Below are positions 5,589 through 32,511 of a DNA stretch of 64,000 nucleotides, piece by piece (position 1 is the stretch's first letter; each line of letters starts with the position of its first letter). The position numbers and the translations under genes are program-made. The stretch lies in assembly GCA_964512835.1 (NCBI GenBank), contig CAZELA010000002.1, forward strand, positions 28,603 through 92,602, given 5' to 3'. Source of the DNA: an uncultured Candidatus Saccharibacteria bacterium. Lineage in GTDB: Bacteria > Patescibacteriota > Minisyncoccia > Phycocordibacterales > UBA2100. The notes below the pieces were generated by a model. It worked only from the letters and a program-made list of their open reading frames with translations, had not been told where the DNA came from and made no database searches.

Positions 5589-6023
5589 ATGTCTACTCTC
5601 AACCAACTCAAGCGAACAGGAAAGCGACCGTATCGACGCGTCGGACGAGGCCAGGGTTCTACCCGCGGCAAGCAGTCCGGACGCGGAGGTAAGGGGCAGA
5701 CCGCGCGCGCGGGCCACAAGGTGCGCCCGGAGATGCGCGACATCATCAAGAAGCTCCCGAAGCGCCGCGGCTACGGCAAGAACCGAGGCCGAACCGTTAT
5801 CCCGACCCCGCGCGCACGCGCAATCTCGCTCACGAAGATCGATTCGCTCTTCGCGGCAGGGGATGTGACCAAGCAGATGATCGTCGACATGAAACTGGCC
5901 CGAAAGAGCCAGCCGGTAACGATCGTATCCGGAGAAACGTCTAAGAAGTACTCATTCAAGGGTGTCCGTGTGACCGGCTCCGCGAAGGCGGCAGTCGAGA
6001 AGGCGGGAGGCACCATTGCATAG
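5589..6023 (+). CDS. rplO: 50S ribosomal protein L15. It directly follows rpsE, and no L30 gene lies between them.
   Basis: MSTLNQLKRTGKRPYRRVGRGQGS... is an L15 N-terminus. Its start is 3 bp after the rpsE stop. Confidence 0.9.
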   Translation: MSTLNQLKRTGKRPYRRVGRGQGSTRGKQSGRGGKGQTARAGHKVRPEMRDIIKKLPKRRGYGKNRGRTVIPTPRARAISLTKIDSLFAAGDVTKQMIVDMKLARKSQPVTIVSGETSKKYSFKGVRVTGSAKAAVEKAGGTIA

Positions 6024-7302
6024 GCCTATGTTTGAAAACTTTGTACGAAAGGTAAAGCTCGTCTTCGAAGACGAGGGGCTGCGCAGCCGCATCCTCTTCG
6101 TACTCGGTGCGCTCGTGGTGTTCCGTCTGTTGGCGGCCATTCCGGTCCCGGGCATCGATGCGATACAGCTCGAAGCATTCCTCGCGAACAATCAGTTCTT
6201 CGGACTCCTCAACATCTTTTCCGGCGGCGGCTTCTCGAATCTCTCGATCGTGATGCTCGGCGTCGGTCCGTACATCACTGCGTCCATCGTGATGCAGCTG
6301 ATGACGATCCTCGTTCCGCGCTTGAAAGAGATGTATCAGGAAGAGGGAGATGCGGGCCGACAGCGGTTCTCGCAGTACTCGCGTTACCTCGCGGTACCGC
6401 TCTCATTCCTCCAGGCGTTCGCGTTCCTCCTGCTCCTCCAGCAGAACGGCATCGTCCCGACGCTCTCGATCCTCGGTCTCGTCACCAATGTGACCGTCAT
6501 TGCAGCCGGTTCGATTCTCTTGATGTGGCTCGGCGAGTTGATCTCTGAATTTGGTGTCGGTAACGGCGTATCGCTCATTATCTTTGCGGGTATCGTCTCG
6601 CGAATCCCGAGTGACATCTCGCAGACGCTCTTCGCGTTCGATCCGTCGCAGGCTCCGGCCTACCTCGGCTTCCTCGCTGCGGGCGTCGCCATCATGGCGG
6701 GCGTTGTGTACATCACCGAAGCAGAGCGACCGATCCCAGTTACCTATGCGCGCCGTGTTCGCGGTTCCAAGGTGCTCGGCGGAGTGTCCACGTACCTTCC
6801 GCTTCGCGTGAACCAGGCGGGCGTTATTCCGATCATCTTCGCCTTGTCATTCTTGTTGTTCCCGCAGATGATCGCCACGTTCCTCTCACGAGTATCCATT
6901 ACCTGGCTTGCCAACGGCGCGCATGCCGTGGTGACCGGTCTTGCGAACCAGTGGATTTACGGCGGACTCTACTTCTTCTTTGTGGTCGTATTCACGTACT
7001 TCTACACTGCAATTACGTTCGAGCCGCACCAGATCGCGAAGAATCTTCAGAAGAACGGTGCGTTCATTCCGGGCGTCCGTCCCGGTACGACGACCGCGGA
7101 TTACTTGGGCAACATCATCACGCGCATTACGCTCGTAGGGGCATTGTTCCTCGGCTTACTTGCAGTGTTCCCGATCATTCTCCAGGGTCTGACGGGCATC
7201 ACCGCGGTCACGATCGGCGGTACGGCACTCTTGATCGCCGTCTCGGTCATTCTTGACCTCGTCAAAAAGATCGACGCACAGACCTCAATCCGCGAATACT
7301 AG
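6016..7302 (+). CDS. secY: Preprotein translocase subunit SecY
   Basis: 428 aa, about 10 transmembrane helices, conserved SecY segments (GIDA, LNIFSGGGFSNLSIVMLGVGPYITASI). Confidence 0.95.
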   Translation: MHRPMFENFVRKVKLVFEDEGLRSRILFVLGALVVFRLLAAIPVPGIDAIQLEAFLANNQFFGLLNIFSGGGFSNLSIVMLGVGPYITASIVMQLMTILVPRLKEMYQEEGDAGRQRFSQYSRYLAVPLSFLQAFAFLLLLQQNGIVPTLSILGLVTNVTVIAAGSILLMWLGELISEFGVGNGVSLIIFAGIVSRIPSDISQTLFAFDPSQAPAYLGFLAAGVAIMAGVVYITEAERPIPVTYARRVRGSKVLGGVSTYLPLRVNQAGVIPIIFALSFLLFPQMIATFLSRVSITWLANGAHAVVTGLANQWIYGGLYFFFVVVFTYFYTAITFEPHQIAKNLQKNGAFIPGVRPGTTTADYLGNIITRITLVGALFLGLLAVFPIILQGLTGITAVTIGGTALLIAVSVILDLVKKIDAQTSIREY

Positions 7303-7504
7303 GCAGCATCGCGCAGGCATAACCCGCCTACTTCGTTACGGGTACCAAGCCGCACTCTCGCCGTACTTCTTGTACGGGTCGAGATGCGGCTTTTCCCGTG
7401 CCTCGTATTCGGGTCATTCTGCGCTCGCTGCGACGTTAGTCGGGTAATACAAACGCGCGGCAACTCCAGCGGGTTTTTTGTTTGTTTTATGGTACTGTCT
7501 CGTC

Positions 7505-8083
7505 ATGAAGTTGGAGAATGTCGTCATTATTTCCGGCCCCTCGGGAGCAGGAGAGGATTCCATCATCGGAGGCTTGAGCGCCTTCACCACCATCAACCGT
7601 GTAATCACCACCACAACCCGCGACATGCGTCCGGGCGAGAGCAACGGTGCGCCGTACTATTTCATTTCGAACGAGGATTTTCAGAAGAAGATCGACAGTA
7701 ACGAAATGATCGAATGGGCGCAGCAGTACAACGGCAACTACTACGGCGTGACTAAAGAGGAGCTCGAACGCGTGAACGCGCTGCCGGGTATCGGTACGTG
7801 GAAGATCGAATACCAGGGAGTTATGACGGCACAAAAACTCTTTCCCGAGATACTCTCGATATTTATTATGGCGGACTCGCTTGAGATCCTCGCGGAGCGC
7901 ATTCGCTCACGAGGGAATGTATCGGAGGAATTCATTCAGGAGCGAATGGAATATACGAAAGAGTGGCTCAAGCACACCGACATGTACGACTACACCGTCA
8001 TCAATCACCAGGGGAAGCTCGACGAAGCCATCCGCGAGATTGCCGGTATCCTCAAAAAAGAGGGCTACGCGGTGAATATATGA
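7505..8083 (+). CDS. Guanylate kinase-like protein with a degenerate P-loop (GPSGAGEDS; Glu at the invariant Lys position)
   Basis: Guanylate-kinase fold signatures (TTTTRDMRPGESNGAPYYF, NGNYYGV), but the Walker A lysine is replaced. Start trimmed to the Met after the secY terminator. The stop overlaps the next gene in ATGA. Confidence 0.65.
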   Translation: MKLENVVIISGPSGAGEDSIIGGLSAFTTINRVITTTTRDMRPGESNGAPYYFISNEDFQKKIDSNEMIEWAQQYNGNYYGVTKEELERVNALPGIGTWKIEYQGVMTAQKLFPEILSIFIMADSLEILAERIRSRGNVSEEFIQERMEYTKEWLKHTDMYDYTVINHQGKLDEAIREIAGILKKEGYAVNI

Positions 8084-8664
8084 TCGAGAAAAAGGTGGTT
8101 GTGATCGCGGGCCCGTCCGGCAGCGGAAAGAATACCCTCATTCGCGAGATCAAAGCTCGCCACCCGCATACCGCAACGCTCACCACCGTCACCACGCGTC
8201 CGCCGCGAGCCCATGAGGTCAACGGTGAAGACTACTATTTTTATTCGATCGATGAGTTCGATCGAGAGGTTCAGAAGGGCAACATCAAGGGTGAGCGTTA
8301 CGTACCGCTCTTCGGCGGCGTCCACTACGGCATCTATCTGCCTGATCTCCAAAAGAAATTGCAGACCGCGACTGTCGTGTTCGCGCCGGTGGATATAACC
8401 GGTGCCGAATGGCTCAAGAAGAACTACGACGCGCTTACCATTTTCATTACACCCGAGTCCTTCGAGCAGTATCGAGTTCGTATTCATAACCGCTCGCGCG
8501 ATATGAGCCCCCGTGAGTTCGACATGCGCATGAAAATCGCGCGCGAGGAGCTTGGAGTTCATGCGCAGAAGTACGATTACCGTGTGGTGTCCTTCGACGG
8601 GGGGCTCTCGGAGCTGACCGACCAGGTATTGGAAATAATCACAAAAGAAGGCTACACTCTCTAG
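8080..8664 (+). CDS. gmk: Guanylate kinase
   Basis: Intact P-loop GPSGSGKNT, TTRPPRAHEVNGEDYYF, YGI. It is a paralog of the upstream gene. Confidence 0.75.
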   Translation: MIEKKVVVIAGPSGSGKNTLIREIKARHPHTATLTTVTTRPPRAHEVNGEDYYFYSIDEFDREVQKGNIKGERYVPLFGGVHYGIYLPDLQKKLQTATVVFAPVDITGAEWLKKNYDALTIFITPESFEQYRVRIHNRSRDMSPREFDMRMKIAREELGVHAQKYDYRVVSFDGGLSELTDQVLEIITKEGYTL

Positions 8665-8675
8665 GAAATTCATCT

Positions 8676-9266
8676 ATGGATCCCATTACAGTACTGTTTT
8701 TCGGCTCCCAGGGCGCCGGCAAGGGCACGCAAGTGCAGATGCTCATGGATCACCTGAGCAAGCGTGCAGATCGCGGCATTATCCGCATCGACATGGGCCA
8801 GGAGCTCCGCAATCTCCGCGATACGGGCACGCACACCGGAAAGCTTACGGGAAACATTATCGACAACGGTATCCGCATTTTTGATTTCATGGCTATCTAT
8901 CTGCAGACCAAAAAGGTCGCAGACAGTTTCACCGGGGAAGAACACATCATCGCTGACGGTCTTGCGCGCGGCGCGGATCAGACCCGCGGTTTTGACGACA
9001 TGATGCAGTTCTACGGTCGCGAAAAGCATTTTCAGATCATCAATCTTGTTATTAATGACGACACCGCGGTCACACGACTGCTCGCACGCGGTCGCAACGA
9101 CGATACCGAAGAGGCTATCCGACGACGCCTTGCATGGACGAAGACTGATGTTATGCCGCAGATCGACCTGTTGCGAAGCCGCGGACGCGTCGTGCACGAA
9201 ATTGACGGCGAGCCGGACGTGGATACCATCCACAAGAACATTCTTGCCGCGCTCAAGCTCGCATAA
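8676..9266 (+). CDS. adk: Adenylate kinase (short form, no zinc lid)
   Basis: LFFGSQGAGKGTQVQML P-loop, 196 aa, in the canonical position near secY. Confidence 0.85.
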   Translation: MDPITVLFFGSQGAGKGTQVQMLMDHLSKRADRGIIRIDMGQELRNLRDTGTHTGKLTGNIIDNGIRIFDFMAIYLQTKKVADSFTGEEHIIADGLARGADQTRGFDDMMQFYGREKHFQIINLVINDDTAVTRLLARGRNDDTEEAIRRRLAWTKTDVMPQIDLLRSRGRVVHEIDGEPDVDTIHKNILAALKLA

Positions 9267-10066: not shown

Positions 10067-11353
10067 GTGGCAGACGGAAAGACCGATATTTTGATACTGG
10101 GGAGCGGGGCGCGAGAGCACGCGCTCGCATGGAAGCTCGCACAGTCTCCCCGCGTGGGGACTATCTACGCTGCACCCGGCAATGCCGGCACAGGTTCATT
10201 TTGTAAGAATGTCGACATTCCGGCGACGGACATCCCGCGCCTTGCGGATTTTGCACATCAGCATTCTATCGGTCTGACCGTCGTCGGGCCGGATGAACCG
10301 CTTGCCCTCGGCATAGTCGATCAGTTCAAACGCACCGGATTGCGTATCTTCGGTCCGACGAAAGCGGCCGCGCAGATCGAAAGCTCAAAGGCGTTCGCGA
10401 AGAAGCTGATGCATGAGGCGAAGATACCGACCGCGGCGTACAGCGTATTCACCGATGCGGTACAGGCACAAGGGTACGTGCAGGCCGGGCCGCTCCCGGT
10501 CGTAATCAAGGCAAGCGGTCTTGCGGCCGGCAAAGGCGTTGTCATTGCGCAGACGCATGAAGAGGCGCGTGCGGCGATTGACGACATCATGGTCAAACGC
10601 ATCTTCGGCGATGCCGGCACGTCGGTCGTCGTCGAGGAATTTCTGGAGGGAAATGAGATATCCGTCCATGTCATGACAGACGGCGTTAATTACGCGATAT
10701 TCCCGAGCTCTCAGGACCACAAGCGCATCGGCGAAGGGGACACCGGCAAGAATACCGGCGGCATGGGGGTCATTGCACCCGTGCCCTGGGTGAATTCAGA
10801 TATGATGCTTGCGATCGAGAAGACAATCATCCAACCGCTCATACGGGCCCTCGGTGATCGAGGCATACCGTACCAGGGGGTGCTGTTCCCCGGCATCATG
10901 ATGACGCCCGCAGGTCCGAAGGTTATAGAACTCAATGCGAGGTTCGGTGACCCGGAGTGCCAGACGTACATGCGTATGCTTAACAGCGACCTTATGGATC
11001 TGATCGACGAATGTGTCGACGGCGGCATCGGGACGCATATACCGCGCTGGGATACTGCGGGAACGGTCGGCGTCGTTCTTGCATCGCAGGGCTATCCGGA
11101 TGATTTCCAGACGGGGTTCAAGATAAGCGGCCTCAAGGAGGCGGGTATGAGCGAGAACGTCGTCGTATTCCATGCCGGAACCGTCGCAAACGACGGATTC
11201 TATACCGCCGGCGGTCGGGTACTCACCGTGACCGCGACGGGGTCACCGATCGCAAAAGCACAGGAGCTCGCCTATCGGGCCGTTGAAAAGATAACGTTCG
11301 AGAATAAGTACTACCGTCGCGATATCGGCCAGAAGTCGATTACCGCATCCTAG
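10067..11353 (+). CDS. purD: Phosphoribosylamine--glycine ligase
   Basis: ILILGSGAREHALAWKL N-terminus and an ATP-grasp core. 428 aa. Confidence 0.9.
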   Translation: MADGKTDILILGSGAREHALAWKLAQSPRVGTIYAAPGNAGTGSFCKNVDIPATDIPRLADFAHQHSIGLTVVGPDEPLALGIVDQFKRTGLRIFGPTKAAAQIESSKAFAKKLMHEAKIPTAAYSVFTDAVQAQGYVQAGPLPVVIKASGLAAGKGVVIAQTHEEARAAIDDIMVKRIFGDAGTSVVVEEFLEGNEISVHVMTDGVNYAIFPSSQDHKRIGEGDTGKNTGGMGVIAPVPWVNSDMMLAIEKTIIQPLIRALGDRGIPYQGVLFPGIMMTPAGPKVIELNARFGDPECQTYMRMLNSDLMDLIDECVDGGIGTHIPRWDTAGTVGVVLASQGYPDDFQTGFKISGLKEAGMSENVVVFHAGTVANDGFYTAGGRVLTVTATGSPIAKAQELAYRAVEKITFENKYYRRDIGQKSITAS

Positions 11354-11433
11354 TGTGCGCGGGATGTGCGTCCGATACACACTCGCACGATTACGAACAA
11401 GAGGGACCTGTCACCGCAAGGTATACTTTTTGT

Positions 11434-14241
11434 ATGGAACCGCGGATTCTCAGCGAGCGTATTACGCCGCGCAACAACACCGAGAAATTCAAATCTGCCG
11501 AAGAAGAGCTTGCATACCTGCGCGAGCAGGTGGCACAAAAAGAACGCGAGCTTTCTGTCCAGCCGGGATCGTTCGAAAAGGACCGTATTGCGAAGCGTGA
11601 GATCGCACAGTACGCCGATATTCCGTCTGCGAAGATCCTGCACGAGACCGTCGTCATGCCCGAGCACGAGACCATGCGACAGATCCTGAAGCTCGAGCCC
11701 GAGGCGCATGACAAGCAGCTCGACGGGCTTATTTCTATCGTAGAGACGCAGGGCGTAAAGAACGCGCTCTCGGTCGCCTCGAGGCTCAAGAATCCGCATC
11801 TGGAAGACGATTTTCATCGCCTCCTGGTGCGGTATGTCGCCGAAGGGTTGCCGGATAGCGGCACGGCAGTCGCAGAAAAAGTGAAGCGTGCACTCCACAT
11901 GGTGCTCTTCGAGGTTCGACCTCAGGCTCATGGCGAGAGCGGGGCAAAGGAATCAGGGCAGCAAAGGCTCGAGCACTTGCTCGCGCCGTCGGAGCAACTC
12001 TACGCAGGACTCCTCACGTTTATAGACGGTACGGAGGGATTTTCGCTCGAGATCGCCGTTCCGCAGGGATCCGAGAGCGCAACGCTCTACCTTGCGGTGC
12101 CGCGCGAAAAACGTACGCTCGCAGAACGGCTCATCACGTCGGTCTTTCCGAACGCGACAATTTCAGAGAGTCGCGGCGACTACAACATATTTGATTACGA
12201 GGGATCGCATGCCGCCTCGTATGCCGTGCTCGCGAAGCACCACGCGTTTCCCGTTAAGACTCCGGATATGTTTGAGCACGATCCCATGAACCTCGTGCTG
12301 GCGGCATTTGCCAAGATTGCGAAGCACGGGGAAGGTGCCGCCATCCAGTTGATCGTGGGATCCGAAGGGGATCGTTACAATCACTACTACAAGAAGGTTG
12401 TCCGCGAGCTCGAGAACGGCAAAGAGATCAACGAAGCGCTCAAGGTGCCGGAGACGGAGATTGGTGAGGCGCTGCGCGATGTGGCAAAACACATCTTCTC
12501 GTCATCGCACGAGACACATCAGTCTGCTCATGCGGTTGATAAGGTGGCAATGGACGAAATATCGCGAAAAATGCAGACCCGTGTTGCGCCTGTCGTGGTG
12601 CGTATCGTCGCATCAGCAAAAGTCCCCGCACGCGCGGATGAAATGCTCGCGAATCTCGAATCGGCGCTGAGCCAATTTGATAATCCGAAGGGAAACCATT
12701 TTGAGTTTGAGCGCGTCTCAAGCTGGGGGTTGAATTCGTTTTTGCATGACTACACTTTCCGCTCGTTCAATGCATCGATCGCGCAGCCGCTCTCGCTCGC
12801 CGAACTCAGTGCCATGTTCCATTTCACCGCTGAACGTGTGACGACGTCGCGCGAGCTGAAAAAGTCGCACGGTAAGCAGGCGCCGGCACCAGTCGATATG
12901 GGTACAGAAGGTATTGTGCTCGGAAAGAACCGCTATGGCGCGGATGAGAGCGAGATTCACTTTGCACCCGCAGATCGCCTGCGTCACTGCTACATAATCG
13001 GTCAGACCGGTACCGGTAAGACAGGCTTCATTACGAACATGATCCTGCAGGATATCCGGAACGGGGAAGGGGTCGCGTTCATTGACCCGCACGGGAGTGA
13101 TATTGAGAACATTCTGTCCGCCATACCGGAGGAACGAAAAAAGGACGTCATTTACTTTGACCCGGCGTATTCTGCGATGCCCATGGGGCTCAATATGCTT
13201 GAGTACGACACTTCGAAGCCCGAGATGAAGTCGTTTGTGATCGACGAGGTGTATGGCGTATTTCGCCAGCTTTACTCCGATGTGCCGGAGGCGTTCGGGC
13301 CGATGTTCGAACAGTACTACCGAAACGCGGTACAGCTCGTCGTCGAGGACCCGGCGACCGGCAGCACATTCGTAGAGATTCCCCGTGTATTCGCCGACAA
13401 AGCGTTCCGGGACCTCAAGATCTCCCGCTGCAACAATCCGATCGTCGTGCAATTTTGGCGGAAGATCGCAGAGGCGGCCGAGGGGGATGCGGGGCTCGAG
13501 AGTATTGCGCCATACATCACGAGTAAATTCGACGCCTTTCTTTCCCACGACATCATGCGACCGATCGTTGCGCAGGAGAAGTCCGCGTTTAACTTCCGCG
13601 AGATCATGGATGGAAAAAAGATATTCCTCGCAAACCTGTCGAAGGGGCGTCTTGGTGATAAGAATGCGGCCCTCCTGGGGCTCGTAATCGTGTCGAAGTT
13701 TTTGCAGGCCGCGTTCTCGCGTGCGGACACCCGCGAGGTGCTTCCGCCGCACTACCTGTACATCGATGAGTTCCAGAATTTCGTCACGCCGTCGATTTCG
13801 ACCATTCTCTCTGAGGCCCGAAAATACAAACTTTCACTTACGGTAGCGCACCAGTTCATGGCGCAGCTCGAAGACGAGATCCGTGATGCGGTCATCGGTA
13901 ACGTCGGTACAAAGATCGCGATGCGTGTCGGAACGACCGATGCGGAATTCCTCGAAAAGCAGTTTTTGCCCGAGTTCACCGCCAAAGATCTCGAGCAGCT
14001 CCCGAACCGTACCGGTGTTGCCGCGATGCTTGTGAACGGGGTGCCGGCAAAGCCATTTACGGTGGAGACCCTGCAATTGCCCGAATTCGATCACTCACAT
14101 CTCGAGGAGATTAAACAACAGTCATACGAGCGGTACGGTGTGCCGCGCGAAGCGGTCGAGGCCGAAATACGTCGCAAGTTCGGGTTCGGCACTCAGTCTG
14201 ACGCCCCGGTGCGGAGCCCTATTTCATCCCTCATGAATTAG
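11434..14241 (+). CDS. P-loop ATPase of the TraG/TraD/VirD4 (type IV coupling protein, FtsK-HerA superfamily) type with a roughly 500-aa uncharacterised N-terminal region
   Basis: Walker A YIIGQTGTGKTGF, Walker B LYIDEFQNF and a downstream AHQ motif lie in the C-terminal half. The N-terminal half has no recognisable motif. Start trimmed to Met28 (MEPRIL), which is preceded by a TATACT -10-like box. Confidence 0.55.
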   Translation: MEPRILSERITPRNNTEKFKSAEEELAYLREQVAQKERELSVQPGSFEKDRIAKREIAQYADIPSAKILHETVVMPEHETMRQILKLEPEAHDKQLDGLISIVETQGVKNALSVASRLKNPHLEDDFHRLLVRYVAEGLPDSGTAVAEKVKRALHMVLFEVRPQAHGESGAKESGQQRLEHLLAPSEQLYAGLLTFIDGTEGFSLEIAVPQGSESATLYLAVPREKRTLAERLITSVFPNATISESRGDYNIFDYEGSHAASYAVLAKHHAFPVKTPDMFEHDPMNLVLAAFAKIAKHGEGAAIQLIVGSEGDRYNHYYKKVVRELENGKEINEALKVPETEIGEALRDVAKHIFSSSHETHQSAHAVDKVAMDEISRKMQTRVAPVVVRIVASAKVPARADEMLANLESALSQFDNPKGNHFEFERVSSWGLNSFLHDYTFRSFNASIAQPLSLAELSAMFHFTAERVTTSRELKKSHGKQAPAPVDMGTEGIVLGKNRYGADESEIHFAPADRLRHCYIIGQTGTGKTGFITNMILQDIRNGEGVAFIDPHGSDIENILSAIPEERKKDVIYFDPAYSAMPMGLNMLEYDTSKPEMKSFVIDEVYGVFRQLYSDVPEAFGPMFEQYYRNAVQLVVEDPATGSTFVEIPRVFADKAFRDLKISRCNNPIVVQFWRKIAEAAEGDAGLESIAPYITSKFDAFLSHDIMRPIVAQEKSAFNFREIMDGKKIFLANLSKGRLGDKNAALLGLVIVSKFLQAAFSRADTREVLPPHYLYIDEFQNFVTPSISTILSEARKYKLSLTVAHQFMAQLEDEIRDAVIGNVGTKIAMRVGTTDAEFLEKQFLPEFTAKDLEQLPNRTGVAAMLVNGVPAKPFTVETLQLPEFDHSHLEEIKQQSYERYGVPREAVEAEIRRKFGFGTQSDAPVRSPISSLMN

Positions 14242-14666: not shown

Positions 14667-14699
14667 AAAACGGCGCTCGCGCGTGCTATATTGCCGCGC

Positions 14700-15308
14700 A
14701 TGAATAACACACATCCGAAGAAGGAACGAACCTTCGTCATGATCAAGCCGGACGGCGTGCAGCGCGCGCTTGTCGGCGAAATTATCAAGCGCTACGAGCG
14801 AACGGGCCTCAAGCTTGTCGGTCTCAAGATCTGCCTCGCGGACGAAAAGAAGCTCTGGGAACACTACGGCAAGGACGACGCGTGGTTCCTCAAAAAGGGT
14901 ACGAAGATCGCGGAGGACAAGAAGGCCAACGGCCTTCCGGTCACGAAGGAGCCGATTGAATACGGAAAAGACATTATCGGTCAGCTCGTGAAGTTTATGA
15001 CGAGCGGCCCGGTTATTCAGATGGTCTGGGAAGGGAATCAGGCAGCAGCCGTCGTCGTAAAGCTCACTGGTACAACGGAACCGGCCACGTCGGATGTGGG
15101 CACGATCCGAGGAGACCTCACCATCGATTCCTACGAAATCGCAGCGGTCGACGATCGCGCAGTCCGAAATCTTATCCACTGCTCGGAGAGCGCAGCAGAA
15201 GCGCAGCGTGAGCTCGGTATCTGGTTCACCGAATCAGAGATCATCAGCTACCGGCAGTTGGCCGAGGAGACGCTCTACGACATCAATCTCGACGGCATCC
15301 TCGAGTAA
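14700..15308 (+). CDS. ndk: Nucleoside diphosphate kinase, long form with an insertion
   Basis: TFVMIKPDGVQRALVGEIIKRYERTGLKLVGLK, and a catalytic His in the NLIHCSES context. About 60 aa longer than the canonical enzyme. Confidence 0.85.
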   Translation: MNNTHPKKERTFVMIKPDGVQRALVGEIIKRYERTGLKLVGLKICLADEKKLWEHYGKDDAWFLKKGTKIAEDKKANGLPVTKEPIEYGKDIIGQLVKFMTSGPVIQMVWEGNQAAAVVVKLTGTTEPATSDVGTIRGDLTIDSYEIAAVDDRAVRNLIHCSESAAEAQRELGIWFTESEIISYRQLAEETLYDINLDGILE

Positions 15309-29157: not shown

Positions 29158-29197
29158 AGCCCCGAAGCGATAGCTTCGGGGCTGACTATTTTTTGTG
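29158..29197. terminator. Bidirectional terminator shared by the small membrane gene and ssrA
   Basis: gccccgaagcgatagcttcggggc followed by tgactatttttt. Confidence 0.6.
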
Positions 29198-29585
29198 GAG
29201 GTGCGGGGAATTGAACCCCGGTCCAGAAAATGATTCACAGTCGTATCTACACGGCGTAGGGCATTCGATGTGTTTGAGTGCCGCGCGTTAAGAATGCACA
29301 AGATCGCGCAACACCGGACTCTCTTTCTTTAGGTCTGTGGTCGGAGTGAACCAAAGACCGGATCTGATGTTTATGACGTTCGGTAGCGCGCTATCAGATA
29401 CGCAACGCGCGAACGGTCGCCTGGCTTACGCGAGGACGAAGCCGAGATCCTTCATCTGAATCGGTGAAAGAGTCCCCCCTGCAGTTTTGTTTGCAGTTAG
29501 AATTTGGAACTTTTTAGGAAGTGTCCCACTTCCGCCATGCACAAAAGTAAACTGAATTTCCTGTCGAAGCCGATCACCCCCCACC
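29194..29585 (-). ncRNA. ssrA: tmRNA (SsrA)
   Basis: The reverse complement begins GGGGGGTGATCGGCTTCGACAGG and ends GGACCGGGGTTCAATTCCCCGCACCTCCACA, a tRNA-like 3' end with no encoded CCA. The internal tag reading frame ends ...QMKDLGFVLA-TAA. Adjacent to smpB. Confidence 0.8.
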
Positions 29586-30046: not shown

Positions 30047-30493
30047 TTATGATTCTTTTTTCAAAGAGCGGCGCATCCTGATGTCTTCCTCGCGCTTTTG
30101 AATCGTCTGCCGTTTATCTCCGTGCTTCTTGCCACGGGCGATCGCGATGGAGAGCTTCAAGTTACGTCCTTTATTATACACTGAAAGTGGTACCACTGTC
30201 AAACCTTTTTCGGATTCAGCGCCGCGAATATGGTCGATTTCTTTGCTGTTCAAGAGCAATCGGCGTGATCGCTCGGCGTCATACGTCTTCGGAGCGTTAG
30301 CCGGCTGCCACGCAGGGATGGTCGCGCCCACCAAGTACGCTTCGCCGCCGCGCGCCACAACGCGCGAACCCTTGAGCGAGCCCAAACCCGCGCGCAGCGA
30401 GCGGACTTCGTATCCGAACAATTCCAAGCCGGCCTCGATAGTTTCGAGGATCTGGTAGTCGAATCCGACGCGTTTATTCTCTATCAGCGACAT
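30047..30493 (-). CDS. smpB: SsrA-binding protein SmpB
   Basis: Start trimmed to MSLIENKRVGFDYQILE. GYEVRSLRAG...LVGATI, and a basic C-terminal tail. Confidence 0.85.
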   Translation of the reverse strand: MSLIENKRVGFDYQILETIEAGLELFGYEVRSLRAGLGSLKGSRVVARGGEAYLVGATIPAWQPANAPKTYDAERSRRLLLNSKEIDHIRGAESEKGLTVVPLSVYNKGRNLKLSIAIARGKKHGDKRQTIQKREEDIRMRRSLKKES

Positions 30494-30597
30494 CCGCATA
30501 CTATATAGTACGGAGGTCCAAAAAGACCACTTGGGGGCGTGTGAGCCCGAGGTCATATTTCTTTCATAAAGGGCTCGTTACTGTATACTCTCCCGAT

Positions 30598-32511
30598 ATG
30601 GCAAACCCCGAAAAGAATAAAAAACAGAAAGAAAAAGCCCCCGAAGGGCCGAATCTGTTCACGCAACTCGCGGTCGCGTTCGCGGTATTTCTTGTTATCA
30701 CGATCGGCTATTCATTCGCGCGTCAGTACGTGCTGAAGCCCGATGTAAACGTGCCGCTTTCACAGATCGCGGCTGACATCACGAACGGTTCCGTAAAGTC
30801 GCTTGTGGTGCAGGGCGACAAGATCATAGCGACCTACGGCGACGAATCCGTAAAGAACTCGCGCAAAGAGGCCGAAGCATCGCTCGTAGAAACCCTTGCC
30901 GCATACAGCATTCCGGCGGAGGCGCTCGCTGCGGTAAAGATCGATATTCAGGATGAGAGCGGTTTCCGTTTCTGGTTCCTCACGCTCGCGCCGATTCTTG
31001 TACCCGCACTGCTCTTGTTCGGTGTCATTTGGTATCTCTCGAGACAGCTGAAGGGGGGAGGTATGCAGGCGTTCTCGTTCGGACGCTCGATGGCGCGACT
31101 CATGCGTCCGGAAGACGCGCAGAAGGTCACGTTCGCCGATGTCGCGGGCGCCAAGGAAGCAAAAGTAGAACTGACCGAGATCGTCGACTTTTTGAAAAAT
31201 CCTAAGAAATTTATCCAGATCGGCGCACGCATCCCGAAGGGAGTACTGCTTATGGGTTCTCCGGGTACGGGCAAAACATTACTCGCGCGCGCAGTTGCGG
31301 GTGAAGCAGGCGTGCCGTTCTTCTCGATATCCGGTTCTGAATTTGTGGAAATGTTCGTGGGTGTGGGAGCCTCACGTGTGCGCGATCTGTTCCAGACTGC
31401 AAAGAAATCCGCACCGGCGATTATTTTCATGGACGAGATCGACGCGGTTGGCCGCGTTCGCGGGTCCGGTGTCGGCGGGGGAAACGACGAGCGCGAACAG
31501 ACACTCAACCAGATCCTCGTGGAAATGGACGGCTTCGAGCCGAATGAGTCGGTGATCGTAATGGCAGCCACCAACCGACCCGATGTACTCGACCCCGCGC
31601 TCTTGCGACCGGGACGATTCGATCGTCGTGTCACGATCGATCCGCCGGATCGCAAAGACCGCGAAGACATTCTTACAATCCACGCACGCAAGAAGCCGCT
31701 CGGACCGGATGTAAAGATCGCCGTGATCGCGGAGCGCACGCCCGGTTTCTCGGGTGCGGACCTCGCAAATCTCATGAACGAAGCAGCGATCCTCGCCGCA
31801 CGCGAAGATCGCAAAGAGATTACGCAGTACGACCTCATTCGTTCGATCGAAAAAGTCATGCTCGGTCCCGAACGACGCTCGCATGTGCTCAATAAAATGG
31901 AGAAGGAAATTACCGCGTACCACGAAGCGGGACACGCGCTCGTCGCTTCCGTTTTGCCGTATGCGGATCCGGTGCACAAGATCTCGATCATCAGTCGCGG
32001 TCGCGCTGCCGGCTACACGCTCAAGCTCCCGCTTGAAGAGCGCAAAATGCAGTCACGAAAAGAGTTCCTCGACGATATCGCGGTCAGCCTCGGCGGCTTC
32101 GTTGCCGAGAAGCTCGTATACGACGACGTGACGACCGGCGCATCGAACGACCTGCAGGTACTCACGAATCTTGCGCGCAACATGGTCGCTCGGTGGGGTA
32201 TGTCGGAAAAGATGGGCCCCATCGCATTTGCGGCTTCCGCACAGCGCGCACTGTTCGGTGAAGGGGTTGATAGCGAAGTCTCCGAAGAGGTTGCATCGCA
32301 CATCGACGAAGAAGTGAAAAAGATCATCACCGGTGCGCATCATGTCGCGACCGACGTAATCACCAAACACCGCAAGGTACTCGACGCAATCGCAAAGCGC
32401 CTCATGGAGGTCGAGACGATCGAACGCGAAGAATTCGAGCAGATGCTCGTGCTGCACGGCATTGCTCCGAAGAAAAAGGAAGACCTGGAGCTCGTAGGGC
32501 TCGCACAATAA
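30598..32511 (+). CDS. ftsH: ATP-dependent zinc metalloprotease FtsH
   Basis: N-terminal transmembrane pair, AAA Walker [12 protein letters not shown] region, HEAGH zinc motif. Confidence 0.95.

What the first reader, a model, noticed from the sequence alone, without database searches (positions are those of the whole stretch)
7505..8664. Tandem guanylate-kinase paralogs between secY and adk; the upstream copy has a dead P-loop
Two about 190-aa guanylate-kinase-fold genes overlap by ATGA. The second has a canonical Walker A (GPSGSGKNT). The first reads GPSGAGEDS, with Glu at the invariant Lys position, which is predicted to abolish ATP phosphate binding. GMP-binding residues (TTTTRD..R..E..Y) are retained. 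A pseudo-kinase guanylate-kinase domain fixed next to the active enzyme inside the ribosomal/secY/adk cluster suggests a regulatory or GMP-sensing role, analogous to eukaryotic MAGUK guanylate-kinase domains, rather than a decaying duplicate.
Basis: partly seen in the sequence, partly recalled or inferred. Interest (0 to 1): 0.6.

Follow-up and report, generated by a model that had tools for sequence, protein, structure and literature searches.

The report
Lysine-less guanylate kinase beside divergent paralog
The "dead-looking" guanylate kinase gene is really the conserved housekeeping version used across a large group of ultra-small bacteria, all of which replace a supposedly indispensable active-site lysine with glutamate, so it is either an unprecedented way of building this enzyme or a widespread bacterial pseudo-enzyme.

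Summary
Two guanylate-kinase-fold genes (7505-8083, 8080-8664) overlap by ATGA between secY and adk. Copy 1 reads GPSGAGEDS and copy 2 reads GPSGSGKNT.

The interpretation (dead regulatory pseudo-kinase beside the active enzyme) is only partly supported.
- **Copy 1 is not decaying.** All 120 best homologues carry G-E-D-S, and dN/dS is 0.025.
- **Copy 1 is the more Gmk-like gene.** It scores 158 against TIGR03263; copy 2 scores 119.
- **Copy 1 usually stands alone.** In 53 Parcubacteria genomes it sits in an S1-gmk-tilS-ftsH operon. Relatives with Lys or Gln at that residue sit in the same operon, so they are positional orthologues.
- **The rest of the active site is intact.** All other ATP-, GMP- and transition-state residues are conserved in nearly every homologue. 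The Asp that binds Mg2+/K+ in human GMPK is an invariant Lys, giving a permuted charge triad.
- **A second family did the same.** A separate CPR family (G-E-[ST]-T) shows Glu in 120 of 120 homologues.
- **Copy 2 is the odd one.** It is lineage-restricted and faster-evolving, has lost the guanine-binding Glu, and also occurs without copy 1.

My best reading is a rewired, probably still functional nucleotide phosphotransferase next to a paralog of uncertain specificity. Activity is untested, and a true pseudo-enzyme remains a serious rival.

The parts
7505..8083 (+). Copy 1 (family 1): a 192-aa guanylate-kinase-fold gene with the lysine-less P-loop G-E-D-S
   Evidence: ORF and sequence. PF00625 125.7 bits. 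TIGR03263 158.0 bits against a cut-off of 160.45. AF2 model pLDDT 94.7. Best Foldseek match is the P. aeruginosa Gmk GMP+ADP complex, TM 0.85 and rmsd 1.9 A.
7535..7561 (+). Copy 1 P-loop, G11-P-S-G-A-G-E17-D18-S19. E17 is at 7553-7555 and D18 is at 7556-7558.
   Evidence: Read directly. E and D are invariant in the 120 best homologues. Both synonymous codons are used across 80 genomes.
7799..7810 (+). Copy 1 W99-K100-I101-E102, at the C-terminal end of strand beta3. K100 (7802-7804) replaces the Asp that is human D101.
   Evidence: K is invariant in 120/120 and W in 120/120. It aligns to human D101. In human GMPK, D101 coordinates K+ directly and Mg2+ through water (PMC12297293). In the AF2 model, strand 96-99 ends just before K100.
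8080..8083 (+). ATGA overlap: the copy 2 start codon overlaps the copy 1 stop codon
   Evidence: In L001-L003 the two tblastn matches abut at the same position (copy 1 ends and copy 2 starts at 6576, 6576 and 5396).
8080..8664 (+). Copy 2 (family 2a): a 194-aa Gmk-fold paralog with P-loop G-K-N-T. The guanine-binding Glu is replaced by Gly, and there is an invariant Arg two residues later.
   Evidence: PF00625 77 bits. TIGR03263 118.6 bits. Conservation table. Subtype analysis. Alignment with human numbering.
8110..8136 (+). Copy 2 P-loop, G-P-S-G-S-G-K17-N18-T19. K17 is at 8128-8130.
   Evidence: K is present in 120/120 and N in 117/120.
6016..7302 (+). secY, the upstream neighbour
   Evidence: 428-aa ORF. 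Its translation recovers the SecY genes of related loci. Those genes match PF00344 in L087/L089.
8676..9266 (+). adk, the downstream neighbour, with a normal G-x-x-G-x-G-K-G-T P-loop
   Evidence: PF00406 64.4 bits. Sequence read.
7303..7504 (+). Structured 202-nt spacer between secY and copy 1. Context only, not shown to belong to the system.
   Evidence: MFE -85.9 kcal/mol, z = -5.65. No Rfam match. L001 instead has a 62-nt spacer with a simple hairpin and T-run.

Best explanation
**What the two genes are.** They are not a kinase plus its dead regulatory copy. They belong to two anciently separated guanylate-kinase-family lineages, co-located in a variable "NMP-kinase slot" between secY and adk.

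**Copy 1 (family 1).** This is the housekeeping Gmk orthologue of many Parcubacteria/Paceibacteria. Its charge cluster around the transferring phosphate has been permuted:
- human K17 / S18 / D101 becomes E17 / D18 / K100;
- every other residue that binds GMP, adenine and the transition state is kept.

My preferred mechanism is that copy 1 still binds GMP and an adenine nucleotide and still transfers phosphate (GMP + ATP <-> GDP + ADP). In that scheme:
- K100 projects from the end of strand beta3 into the site that D101, K+ and water occupy in canonical enzymes, and supplies the positive charge;
- E17 and D18 hold the Mg2+.

**Copy 2 (family 2a).** This is a younger, lineage-restricted paralog. 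It keeps the Walker lysine but has lost the guanine-specifying Glu, so it is most likely a nucleotide kinase with altered substrate recognition.

**Shown:**
- the conservation and the strength of selection;
- positional orthology of the K, Q and E forms;
- independent recurrence of Glu in a second family;
- retention of all other site residues;
- independence of copy 1 and copy 2 distributions.

**Inferred:**
- that copy 1 is catalytically competent;
- the geometric role of K100, E17 and D18;
- the altered specificity of copy 2.
For: **Conservation and selection.**
- G-E-D-S is in 120/120 best homologues, down to 61% identity.
- E17, D18, W99 and K100 are invariant.
- Synonymous codons vary at all three key residues in 80 genomes.
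- dN/dS is 0.025 for copy 1, 0.021 for copy 2 and 0.017 for adk.
- In 53 genomes, pairwise identity of family 1 is 63%. The figures are 69% for FtsH, 66% for S1 and 46% for TilS.

**Orthology.**
- About 50 of 80 loci have S1-Gmk(E)-TilS-FtsH.
- The same synteny holds for K-type P0249 and for Q-type P0242 and P0259.
- Family 1 nests among K/Q/E forms that share D18 and K/R100.

**Active-site retention.**
- S13, R39, R42, E70, R132, R136, R147 and N167 are invariant. Y51 and Y80 are nearly invariant, at 90% or more.
- They correspond to human S13, R41, R44, Y53, E72, Y81, R133, R137, R148 and N171.
- The roles of those human residues in GMP binding, adenine binding and transition-state binding were shown by structure and mutagenesis (PMC12297293).

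**Correlated change.**
- Among representatives clustered at 50% identity, 14 of 17 sequences with E/Q at position 17 have K/R at position 100. Among Lys-type sequences the figure is 28 of 99.

**Convergence.**
- Family 3 (G-E-[ST]-T) has Glu in 120/120, an invariant Asn at the D101 position and a new invariant Arg. It keeps E72 and the LID arginines.
- It forms a clade with Lys-type family 2 in 40/40 bootstraps, separate from family 1.

**Structure.**
- The confident AF2 model (pLDDT 94.7) best matches closed GMP+ADP Gmk complexes.

**Copy 2.**
- It scores lower against Gmk models.
- E72 is replaced by Gly. E72A in human GMPK has no detectable activity.
- dN between the window and L003 is 0.31 for copy 2 and 0.07 for copy 1.
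- It occurs beside a Cmk-like gene or another Gmk-like gene, without family 1.

**Field context.**
- Canonical gmk is reported as poorly represented in Parcubacteria (PMC4508563).
- That fits family 1 scoring just below the TIGR03263 cut-off.
Against: - No activity data exist.
- In human GMPK, K17A and S18A abolish detectable activity. A charge reversal at position 17 would therefore be expected to be at least as damaging unless it is compensated.
- No coordinates were available from the structure tool, so the geometry of the proposed compensation by K100 is untested.
- Family 3 has no Lys/Arg at the D101 position, so a single "relocated lysine" mechanism cannot cover both Glu families.
- A 2026 preprint reports a cultivated Minisyncoccus that lacks Gmk and obtains NDPs through PNPase. 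Gmk activity may therefore be dispensable in this phylum, and the argument "it must be active because it is essential" fails.
- I could not check whole genomes for a third, canonical Gmk.
- Copy 2's invariant Arg could still read guanine, so copy 2 might be a working Gmk after all.
Confidence: 0.5

Rival explanations
1. **Pseudo-enzyme.** Family 1 proteins are catalytically dead. They act as conserved GMP/nucleotide-binding sensors or regulators, in this genome possibly of copy 2 and elsewhere of other partners.
For: - The Walker-A Lys is indispensable in characterised enzymes. K17A in human GMPK gives no detectable activity (PMC12297293).
- Glu reverses the charge at the phosphate site.
- GMP-binding residues are intact.
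- Translational coupling (ATGA) with copy 2 in this genome.
- Gmk may be dispensable where PNPase supplies NDPs.
- gmk is reported as poorly represented in Parcubacteria.
Against: - Pseudo-enzymes such as MAGUK GK domains lose the whole ATP site. Here the glycine-rich loop, S13, the three LID arginines and the adenine-binding Asn are invariant.
- The substitution is specifically E or Q and is coupled to K/R at position 100, which is not random drift.
- Family 1 usually stands without copy 2.
- It has Lys-type positional orthologues.
- It is as conserved as FtsH and S1.
Confidence: 0.3
2. **New chemistry on the Gmk scaffold.** The E/D P-loop binds a second metal or a different phosphoryl donor or acceptor. 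Alternatively the Glu acts as a general base, which would make family 1 a nucleotide hydrolase, or an enzyme run mainly in reverse (GDP + ADP -> GMP + ATP) in RNA-scavenging cells.
For: - Two adjacent carboxylates sit in the P-loop and a Lys sits at the metal/K+ site.
- New invariant aromatic residues Y150 and W154 follow the LID, and W99 precedes K100.
- A fusion of a G-E-D-S domain to a NUDIX hydrolase exists (P0244).
- An NDP-based economy has been proposed for a cultivated relative.
Against: - Adenine-binding residues (R132, N167) and all GMP-site residues are unchanged, which points to the ordinary substrate pair.
- There is no direct evidence for any alternative donor.
Confidence: 0.13
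3. **Obligate heterodimer with split function.** Copy 1 contributes the guanine site and copy 2 contributes the Walker lysine.
For: - The defects are complementary in this genome. Copy 1 has E17 but keeps E70. Copy 2 has K17 but lacks the E72 equivalent.
- The ATGA overlap suggests co-translation.
Against: - Family 1 occurs without family 2 in 77 of 80 related loci.
- Family 2 occurs with a Cmk-like gene or another Gmk-like gene instead of family 1.
- In Kaiserbacteria-type loci both tandem genes are Glu-type.
- From established knowledge of NMP kinases, phosphoryl transfer happens within one monomer.
Confidence: 0.05
4. **Sequencing error or decaying pseudogene.**
For: None, beyond the oddity of the motif itself.
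Against: - The identical protein is on 8 contigs and is listed from three sources.
- 120/120 homologues share the motif.
- K-to-E plus S/T-to-D needs at least 3 base changes (read).
- dN/dS is 0.025 and there are no frameshifts or stops in 5 relatives.
Confidence: 0.01

Closest known systems
Canonical guanylate kinase (Gmk/GUK1; EC 2.7.4.8; PF00625, TIGR03263), e.g. human GMPK, yeast Guk1, E. coli and P. aeruginosa Gmk
   Same: - Same fold: AF2 model TM 0.85 and rmsd 1.9 A to 8egl.
- Same length.
- Same GMP-phosphate ligands (R41, R44, Y53, Y81), guanine-binding Glu E72, LID arginines (R137, R148) and adenine ligands (R133, N171) in copy 1.
- Housekeeping operon context.
   Different: - **Copy 1:** Walker Lys is Glu, the following Ser is Asp, D101 is Lys, T83 is Val and D103 is Glu. 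It scores 158.0, just under the TIGR03263 cut-off of 160.45.
- **Copy 2:** K is kept, but S18 is Asn, E72 is Gly with a new invariant Arg, T83 is Ile and N171 is Ser.
MAGUK guanylate-kinase-like (GK) domains (PSD-95/DLG, CASK, MPP)
   Same: - They descend from Gmk and have a non-canonical P-loop.
- The phosphate-binding Arg/Tyr pocket is retained.
- Weak sequence hits to copy 1, E-values 2.5e-8 to 1e-3.
   Different: - From established knowledge, MAGUK GK domains have lost the glycine-rich loop and the ATP/LID residues. They are embedded in PDZ-SH3-GK scaffolds and bind phosphopeptides.
- Copy 1 is a stand-alone 192-aa protein with an intact G-x-S-G-x-G loop, LID arginines and adenine contacts.
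WNK ("with no lysine") protein kinases (analogy of mechanism only, unrelated fold)
   Same: An invariant catalytic Lys is missing from its canonical position, while another invariant Lys sits on a neighbouring strand next to the active site. Here that is K100 at the end of beta3, adjacent to the P-loop strand.
   Different: - Different fold and superfamily.
- In WNK the relocated Lys is experimentally proven. Here it is an inference from sequence covariation only.
- It does not apply to family 3.
PhnN ribose 1,5-bisphosphokinase (Gmk-fold relative with a G-K-D-S P-loop; motif recalled from memory)
   Same: Gmk-like fold. Asp follows the P-loop Lys position, as in copy 1 and in its Lys-type relatives with G-K-D-[ST].
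   Different: TIGR02322 scores only 51.9 bits for copy 1 and 44.8 bits for copy 2, against a cut-off of 156. PhnN keeps the Lys.

Membership tests
Guanylate kinase (PF00625 / TIGR03263 equivalog) | Full-length match to the Gmk fold and profile | tested here: met
   - PF00625: 125.7 bits for copy 1 and 77 bits for copy 2; cut-off 25.2.
- Foldseek top hits for copy 1 are all Gmk.
Guanylate kinase (PF00625 / TIGR03263 equivalog) | Score at or above the curated equivalog cut-off (160.45 bits) | tested here: not met
   Copy 1 scores 158.0, a narrow miss. Copy 2 scores 118.6.
Guanylate kinase (PF00625 / TIGR03263 equivalog) | Walker-A lysine (human K17). K17A has no detectable activity. | tested here: not met
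   - Copy 1 has E17, as do 120/120 of its family.
- Copy 2 has K17, but with N18 in place of Ser/Thr.
- The mutant data come from PMC12297293.
Guanylate kinase (PF00625 / TIGR03263 equivalog) | GMP-phosphate ligands R41, R44, Y53, Y81 | tested here: met
   Present in both copies. In the 120-sequence sets, R41 and R44 are 120/120 in both families. Y53 is 117/120 in family 1 and 119/120 in family 2. Y81 is 119/120 in family 1 and 120/120 in family 2.
Guanylate kinase (PF00625 / TIGR03263 equivalog) | Guanine-specifying Glu (human E72). E72A is inactive. | tested here: inconclusive
   - **Copy 1: met.** E70 is invariant.
- **Copy 2: not met.** It has Gly at that column, with an invariant Arg two residues later. 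Subtype 2b of the same family keeps the Glu.
Guanylate kinase (PF00625 / TIGR03263 equivalog) | LID and adenine residues R133, R137, R148, N171 | tested here: met
   - Copy 1 has R132, R136, R147 and N167, all invariant.
- Copy 2 has all three arginines, but Ser at the N171 position.
Guanylate kinase (PF00625 / TIGR03263 equivalog) | ATP:GMP phosphotransferase activity | not testable with these tools
   Needs an enzyme assay or genetic complementation.
MAGUK-type GK pseudo-kinase domain | Loss of the glycine-rich P-loop and of the ATP/LID residues | tested here: not met
   G11, S13, G14, G16, R132, R136, R147 and N167 are invariant in family 1.
MAGUK-type GK pseudo-kinase domain | Embedded in a PDZ/SH3 scaffold and acting as a phosphopeptide-binding module | tested here: not met
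   Copy 1 is a stand-alone 192-aa protein with a single Pfam domain. The fusions seen in relatives are to NUDIX or S1 domains, not to scaffold domains. Peptide binding was not testable.
PhnN ribose 1,5-bisphosphokinase (TIGR02322) | Score at or above the cut-off of 156 bits | tested here: not met
   51.9 bits for copy 1 and 44.8 bits for copy 2.
Relocated-catalytic-lysine enzymes (WNK-like logic; "works like", not homology) | Canonical Lys absent, and an invariant Lys on a neighbouring element at the active site | tested here: inconclusive
   - At sequence level this is met. E17 and K100 are invariant. K100 aligns to the Mg2+/K+ ligand D101. 14 of 17 E/Q sequences have K/R there.
- The geometry is not testable because the structure tool returns no coordinates.
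- Family 3 lacks such a Lys.

The most novel reading that the evidence does not exclude
Family 1, and independently family 3, are catalytically active nucleoside-monophosphate kinases that work without the Walker-A lysine.
- The charge triad K17 / S18 / D101 is permuted to E17 / D18 / K100 in family 1, and to E / S-T / N plus a new Arg in family 3.
- The positive charge at the transferring phosphate then comes from strand beta3 or from a bound cation, and the P-loop carboxylates hold the metal.

These would be the first natural P-loop phosphotransferases without the Walker lysine. They would also be the housekeeping guanylate kinases of a large part of the Patescibacteria, which would explain why gmk looks "missing" from those genomes.
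Probability: 0.4. Interest if true: 0.85.

Novelty: new variant of a known kind. Interest (0 to 1): 0.62.

Why it matters
The Walker-A lysine is treated as universally indispensable in P-loop kinases and NTPases. It is routinely used to call proteins "dead".

Here the lysine has been replaced by Glu or Gln in two large, independently derived families of housekeeping-context Gmk homologues in ultra-small bacteria. Everything else in the active site is frozen.

- **If these proteins are active,** they show a new way to build a P-loop phosphotransfer site. They would also correct metabolic reconstructions that score gmk as absent in Parcubacteria.
- **If they are inactive,** they are a rare case of an ancient, strongly conserved bacterial pseudo-kinase. 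That would support the idea that these organisms bypass GMP phosphorylation altogether.

Either outcome can be tested directly with two small soluble proteins.

Tried and rejected
- **Sequencing error or pseudogene.** Rejected.
- **Riboswitch or known RNA in the 202-nt leader upstream of copy 1.** No Rfam hit, even at E <= 5. The close relative L001 lacks the insert, so it is not part of a conserved system.
- **Promoter and terminator scan of 7200-8800.** Nothing above the shuffle expectation.
- **Obligate copy 1 - copy 2 complex.** Rejected on distribution.
- **"E69 to R" in copy 2.** This came from my first alignment. I revised it after anchoring on the conserved V-P motif and on family 3: the Glu column is Gly, and the invariant Arg lies two residues later.
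- **Taxon names for the Lys/Gln-type relatives.** The listing of cluster members returned no taxon names.
- **Measuring the K100-to-P-loop distance.** Not possible. Structure prediction returns no coordinates and /data holds no model files.
- **Literature searches** for a lysine-less Gmk, a non-canonical Walker A in Gmk, or Gmk in CPR found no description of this motif.
- **Heterodimer structure prediction.** Not attempted.
Full report
**1. The observation**

An ATG at 7505 opens a 192-aa ORF that stops at 8081-8083. An ATG at 8080 opens a 194-aa ORF that stops at 8664. The two share ATGA. They lie between secY (6016-7302) and adk (8676-9266), with S5 and L15 upstream and map downstream.

Both match Pfam Guanylate_kin over their full length. 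They are only 31% identical to each other.

- Copy 1 reads GPSGAGEDS. The E17 codon is gag at 7553-7555.
- Copy 2 reads GPSGSGKNT.

The Glu is not an error.
- The identical protein is on 8 contigs and is listed from three sources.
- All 120 best homologues, down to 61% identity, have G-E-D-S.
- Across 80 genomes, both synonymous codons are used at E17, D18 and K100.

**2. Which copy is the odd one?**

- Copy 1 scores higher against every Gmk model. For TIGR03263 the scores are 158.0 and 118.6 against a cut-off of 160.45.
- Copy 1 has more homologues: 1211 against 352 at E <= 1e-5.
- Copy 1 evolves more slowly. Between the window and L003, dN is 0.07 for copy 1 and 0.31 for copy 2.
- Both are under strong purifying selection. 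Window versus L001 gives dN/dS of 0.025 for copy 1, 0.021 for copy 2, 0.017 for adk and 0.012 for secY.

**3. Residue-level anatomy**

I aligned both families with human GMPK. The roles of the human residues come from structures and mutants in that paper.

| Role in human GMPK | Human residue(s) | Copy 1 / family 1 | Copy 2 / family 2a |
|---|---|---|---|
| Contacts gamma-phosphate / AlF4- | S13 | S13, invariant | S, invariant |
| Walker-A Lys (K17A: no detectable activity) | K17 | E17, invariant | K, invariant |
| Direct Mg2+ ligand (S18A: no detectable activity) | S18 | D18, invariant | N (117/120) |
| GMP-phosphate binding | R41, R44, Y53, Y81 | all four kept (R 120/120; Y 117-119/120) | all four kept (R 120/120; Y 119-120/120) |
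| Guanine binding, essential (E72A: no detectable activity) | E72 | E70, invariant | Gly, with a new invariant Arg two residues later |
| Guanine binding (T83A: minimal effect) | T83 | V | I |
| Guanine binding (D103A: minimal effect) | D103 | E | D |
| K+ ligand; Mg2+ through water | D101 | K100, invariant, preceded by invariant W99 | P (P or Q in the family) |
| Adenine binding | R133, N171 | R132, N167, invariant | R kept; N171 is Ser |
| Transition-state binding | R137, R148 | R136, R147, invariant | kept |

Sources for the conservation figures are.

In short, the triad K17 / S18 / D101 is permuted to E17 / D18 / K100 in family 1, and the rest of the site is frozen. MAGUK GK domains, by contrast, have lost the whole ATP site (established knowledge). 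A subtype 2b of family 2 retains the Glu that copy 2 has lost.

**4. Distribution and synteny**

A scan of one genome per GTDB species found 221 family 1 loci, of which 80 were fetched. They come from Paceibacteria, Moranbacteria, Kaiserbacteria, Falkowbacteria and others.

| Arrangement | Loci |
|---|---|
| Family 1 - family 2 tandem between secY and adk | 3 closest relatives, L001-L003 |
| Family 1 alone between secY and adk | L004, L005, L011, L042 |
| A third paralog (family 3) directly upstream of family 1 | L006, L007, L009 |
| Family 1 elsewhere in the genome, in S1-protein -> Gmk -> TilS -> FtsH | about 50 of the 80 loci; 53 have all four genes |

In the S1-Gmk-TilS-FtsH genomes, family 1 is about as conserved as FtsH and S1 and far more conserved than TilS. 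Mean pairwise identities are 63%, 69%, 66% and 46%.

The same S1-Gmk-TilS(-FtsH) slot is occupied in other metagenomic contigs by a Lys-type relative (P0249: G-K-D-S with W-R) and by Gln-type relatives (P0242, P0259: G-Q-D-S). The K, Q and E forms are therefore positional orthologues of one housekeeping gene.

Family 2 also occurs without family 1.
- secY -> Cytidylate_kin2-like -> family 2 -> adk (L089, L090).
- secY -> a different Lys-type Gmk-like gene -> family 2 -> adk (L087, L088).

The secY-adk interval is thus a variable "NMP-kinase slot". The two genes in this window are not an obligate pair.

**5. Evolution of the lysine loss**

An exhaustive HMMER search of representatives clustered at 50% identity gave 18,696 hits at E <= 1e-3.

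Among the 116 aligned single-domain sequences:
- 17 have E or Q at position 17, and 14 of those have K/R at position 100.
- 99 have Lys at position 17, and 28 of those have K/R at position 100. Nearly all of these also have D18.

The D18 + K/R100 background therefore looks older than the loss of K17. These counts are not phylogenetically independent.

Family 3 is a separate case.
- All 120 best homologues read G-E-[ST]-T.
- Asn is invariant at the D101 position.
- There is a new invariant Arg in "NRDAYYG".
- E72 and the LID arginines are kept.

Family 3 is found in Kaiserbacteria and Magasanikbacteria. It often sits in RluD -> Gmk -> L19.

In NJ trees, family 3 is sister to Lys-type family 2 in 40/40 bootstraps, and the pair is separate from family 1. 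The Walker lysine therefore changed state at least twice. Each time it changed to Glu or Gln, and each time the Asp at position 101 was lost too. This pattern looks like a selected alternative state, not like decay.

**6. Structure**

The AF2 model of copy 1 is confident (pLDDT 94.7). E17 starts helix 1, and K100 directly follows strand 96-99, which is the Walker-B-like position.

Its best PDB matches are closed Gmk complexes with GMP + ADP (8egl, TM 0.85, rmsd 1.9 A). No coordinates were available, so side-chain geometry was not examined.

**7. Mechanism (inferred)**

In human GMPK:
- K17 contacts the gamma-phosphate / AlF4-;
- Mg2+ binds S18 directly and D101 through water;
- K+ binds the D101 carboxylate and the S37 hydroxyl, bridging the CORE and GMP-binding domains.

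My preferred reading for family 1:
- The ammonium group of K100 occupies the K+/water site next to T35 and the transferring phosphate.
- D18, with E17, ligates Mg2+ directly.
- Together these preserve a positive and a metal centre around the phosphoryl group in swapped positions. This resembles, in logic only, the relocated lysine of WNK kinases.

I put about 0.5 on copy 1 remaining a competent phosphotransferase.

The main rival, at about 0.3, is a conserved nucleotide-binding pseudo-enzyme. Two things keep it alive.
- K17A is dead in the human enzyme.
- A 2026 preprint reports a cultivated Minisyncoccus that lacks Gmk and gets NDPs from RNA through PNPase. Gmk activity may therefore be dispensable.

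An older survey noted that gmk, cmk and tmk are poorly represented in Parcubacteria (PMC4508563). That fits family 1 falling just under the curated Gmk threshold.

The substrate of copy 2 is open. Loss of E72 predicts loss of canonical GMP recognition, but its invariant Arg could still read a base.

**8. Comparison with what is known, and novelty**

Both genes belong to the guanylate-kinase fold family. Neither passes the equivalog threshold. Each fails one defining catalytic-residue test: copy 1 fails on the Walker Lys, and copy 2 fails on the guanine-binding Glu.

Copy 1 is not MAGUK-like in the features that define MAGUK GK domains.

Four literature searches found no description of a Glu/Gln-type Walker A in Gmk or of this CPR family. 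I rate it a new variant of a known kind.

**9. Verdict**

- "Not a decaying duplicate" is confirmed.
- "Dead regulatory copy beside the active enzyme" is not supported as stated.
- The more interesting finding is phylum-scale. Housekeeping Gmk orthologues of many Patescibacteria lack the Walker lysine. Whether they still catalyse phosphotransfer is a directly testable question.

Noticed in passing
window 7303-7504: The 202-nt spacer between secY and copy 1 folds very stably (-85.9 kcal/mol, z = -5.65 against shuffles) and matches no Rfam family. The 97%-identical relative L001 has only a 62-nt spacer with a plain hairpin and T-run terminator. The window therefore carries a structured insert of about 140 nt that is unique to it, with no second copy in the window or in the fetched loci.
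   Followed up: partly
L006 5406-5993, L007 5381-5992, L009 5343-5993 (and P0393-P0512): This is a second large CPR Gmk-like family (family 3) with Glu at the Walker-A Lys position (G-P-T-G/A-S-G-E-S/T-T). Glu is present in 120/120 homologues. Asn is invariant at the D101 position, and there is a new invariant Arg. It lies directly upstream of family 1 in Kaiserbacteria-type genomes, so both tandem Gmk genes there lack the lysine. Elsewhere it sits in RluD-Gmk-L19.
   Followed up: yes
L087 4415-5579; L089 4438-5585: The interval between secY and adk is a variable nucleotide-kinase slot in Paceibacteria. Besides the window's pair, it can hold a Lys-type G-K-D-S Gmk-like gene plus family 2, or a Cytidylate_kin2-like gene plus family 2.
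   Followed up: partly
P0244 (334 aa), P0251 (327 aa): Natural fusions exist. One joins a G-E-D-S Gmk domain to a C-terminal NUDIX hydrolase. The other joins an N-terminal S1 RNA-binding domain to a G-Q-D-S Gmk domain, mirroring the S1-gmk gene adjacency.
   Followed up: no
window 29193-29581 (-), 30047-30556 (-), 30541-32511 (+): tmRNA and smpB lie divergent from ftsH. In this genome ftsH has no tilS/gmk/S1 genes upstream. The S1-gmk-tilS-ftsH operon seen in 53 related genomes has been broken up here, and gmk sits next to secY instead.
   Followed up: partly
window 10067-11353, 11353-14241, 14691-15308: purD (GAR synthetase) follows map, which is an isolated purine-synthesis gene in a lineage said to lack de novo nucleotide synthesis. 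It is followed by a 962-aa TraG/VirD4-like coupling protein and by ndk.
   Followed up: no
record titles (e.g. L012, L013, L047, L069, L001): Several genome records that carry typical Parcubacteria family 1 loci are titled Bdellovibrionales, Gammaproteobacteria, Lysobacteraceae or Saccharibacteria. These are probably mislabelled metagenome bins.
   Followed up: no
window 8080-8661 against PDB: The best solved-structure sequence match for copy 2 is not a Gmk. It is a GK-like repeat of Chlamydomonas flagellar protein FAP42 (98.5 bits summed over several repeats). Canonical Gmks follow at 75 bits or less.
   Followed up: no
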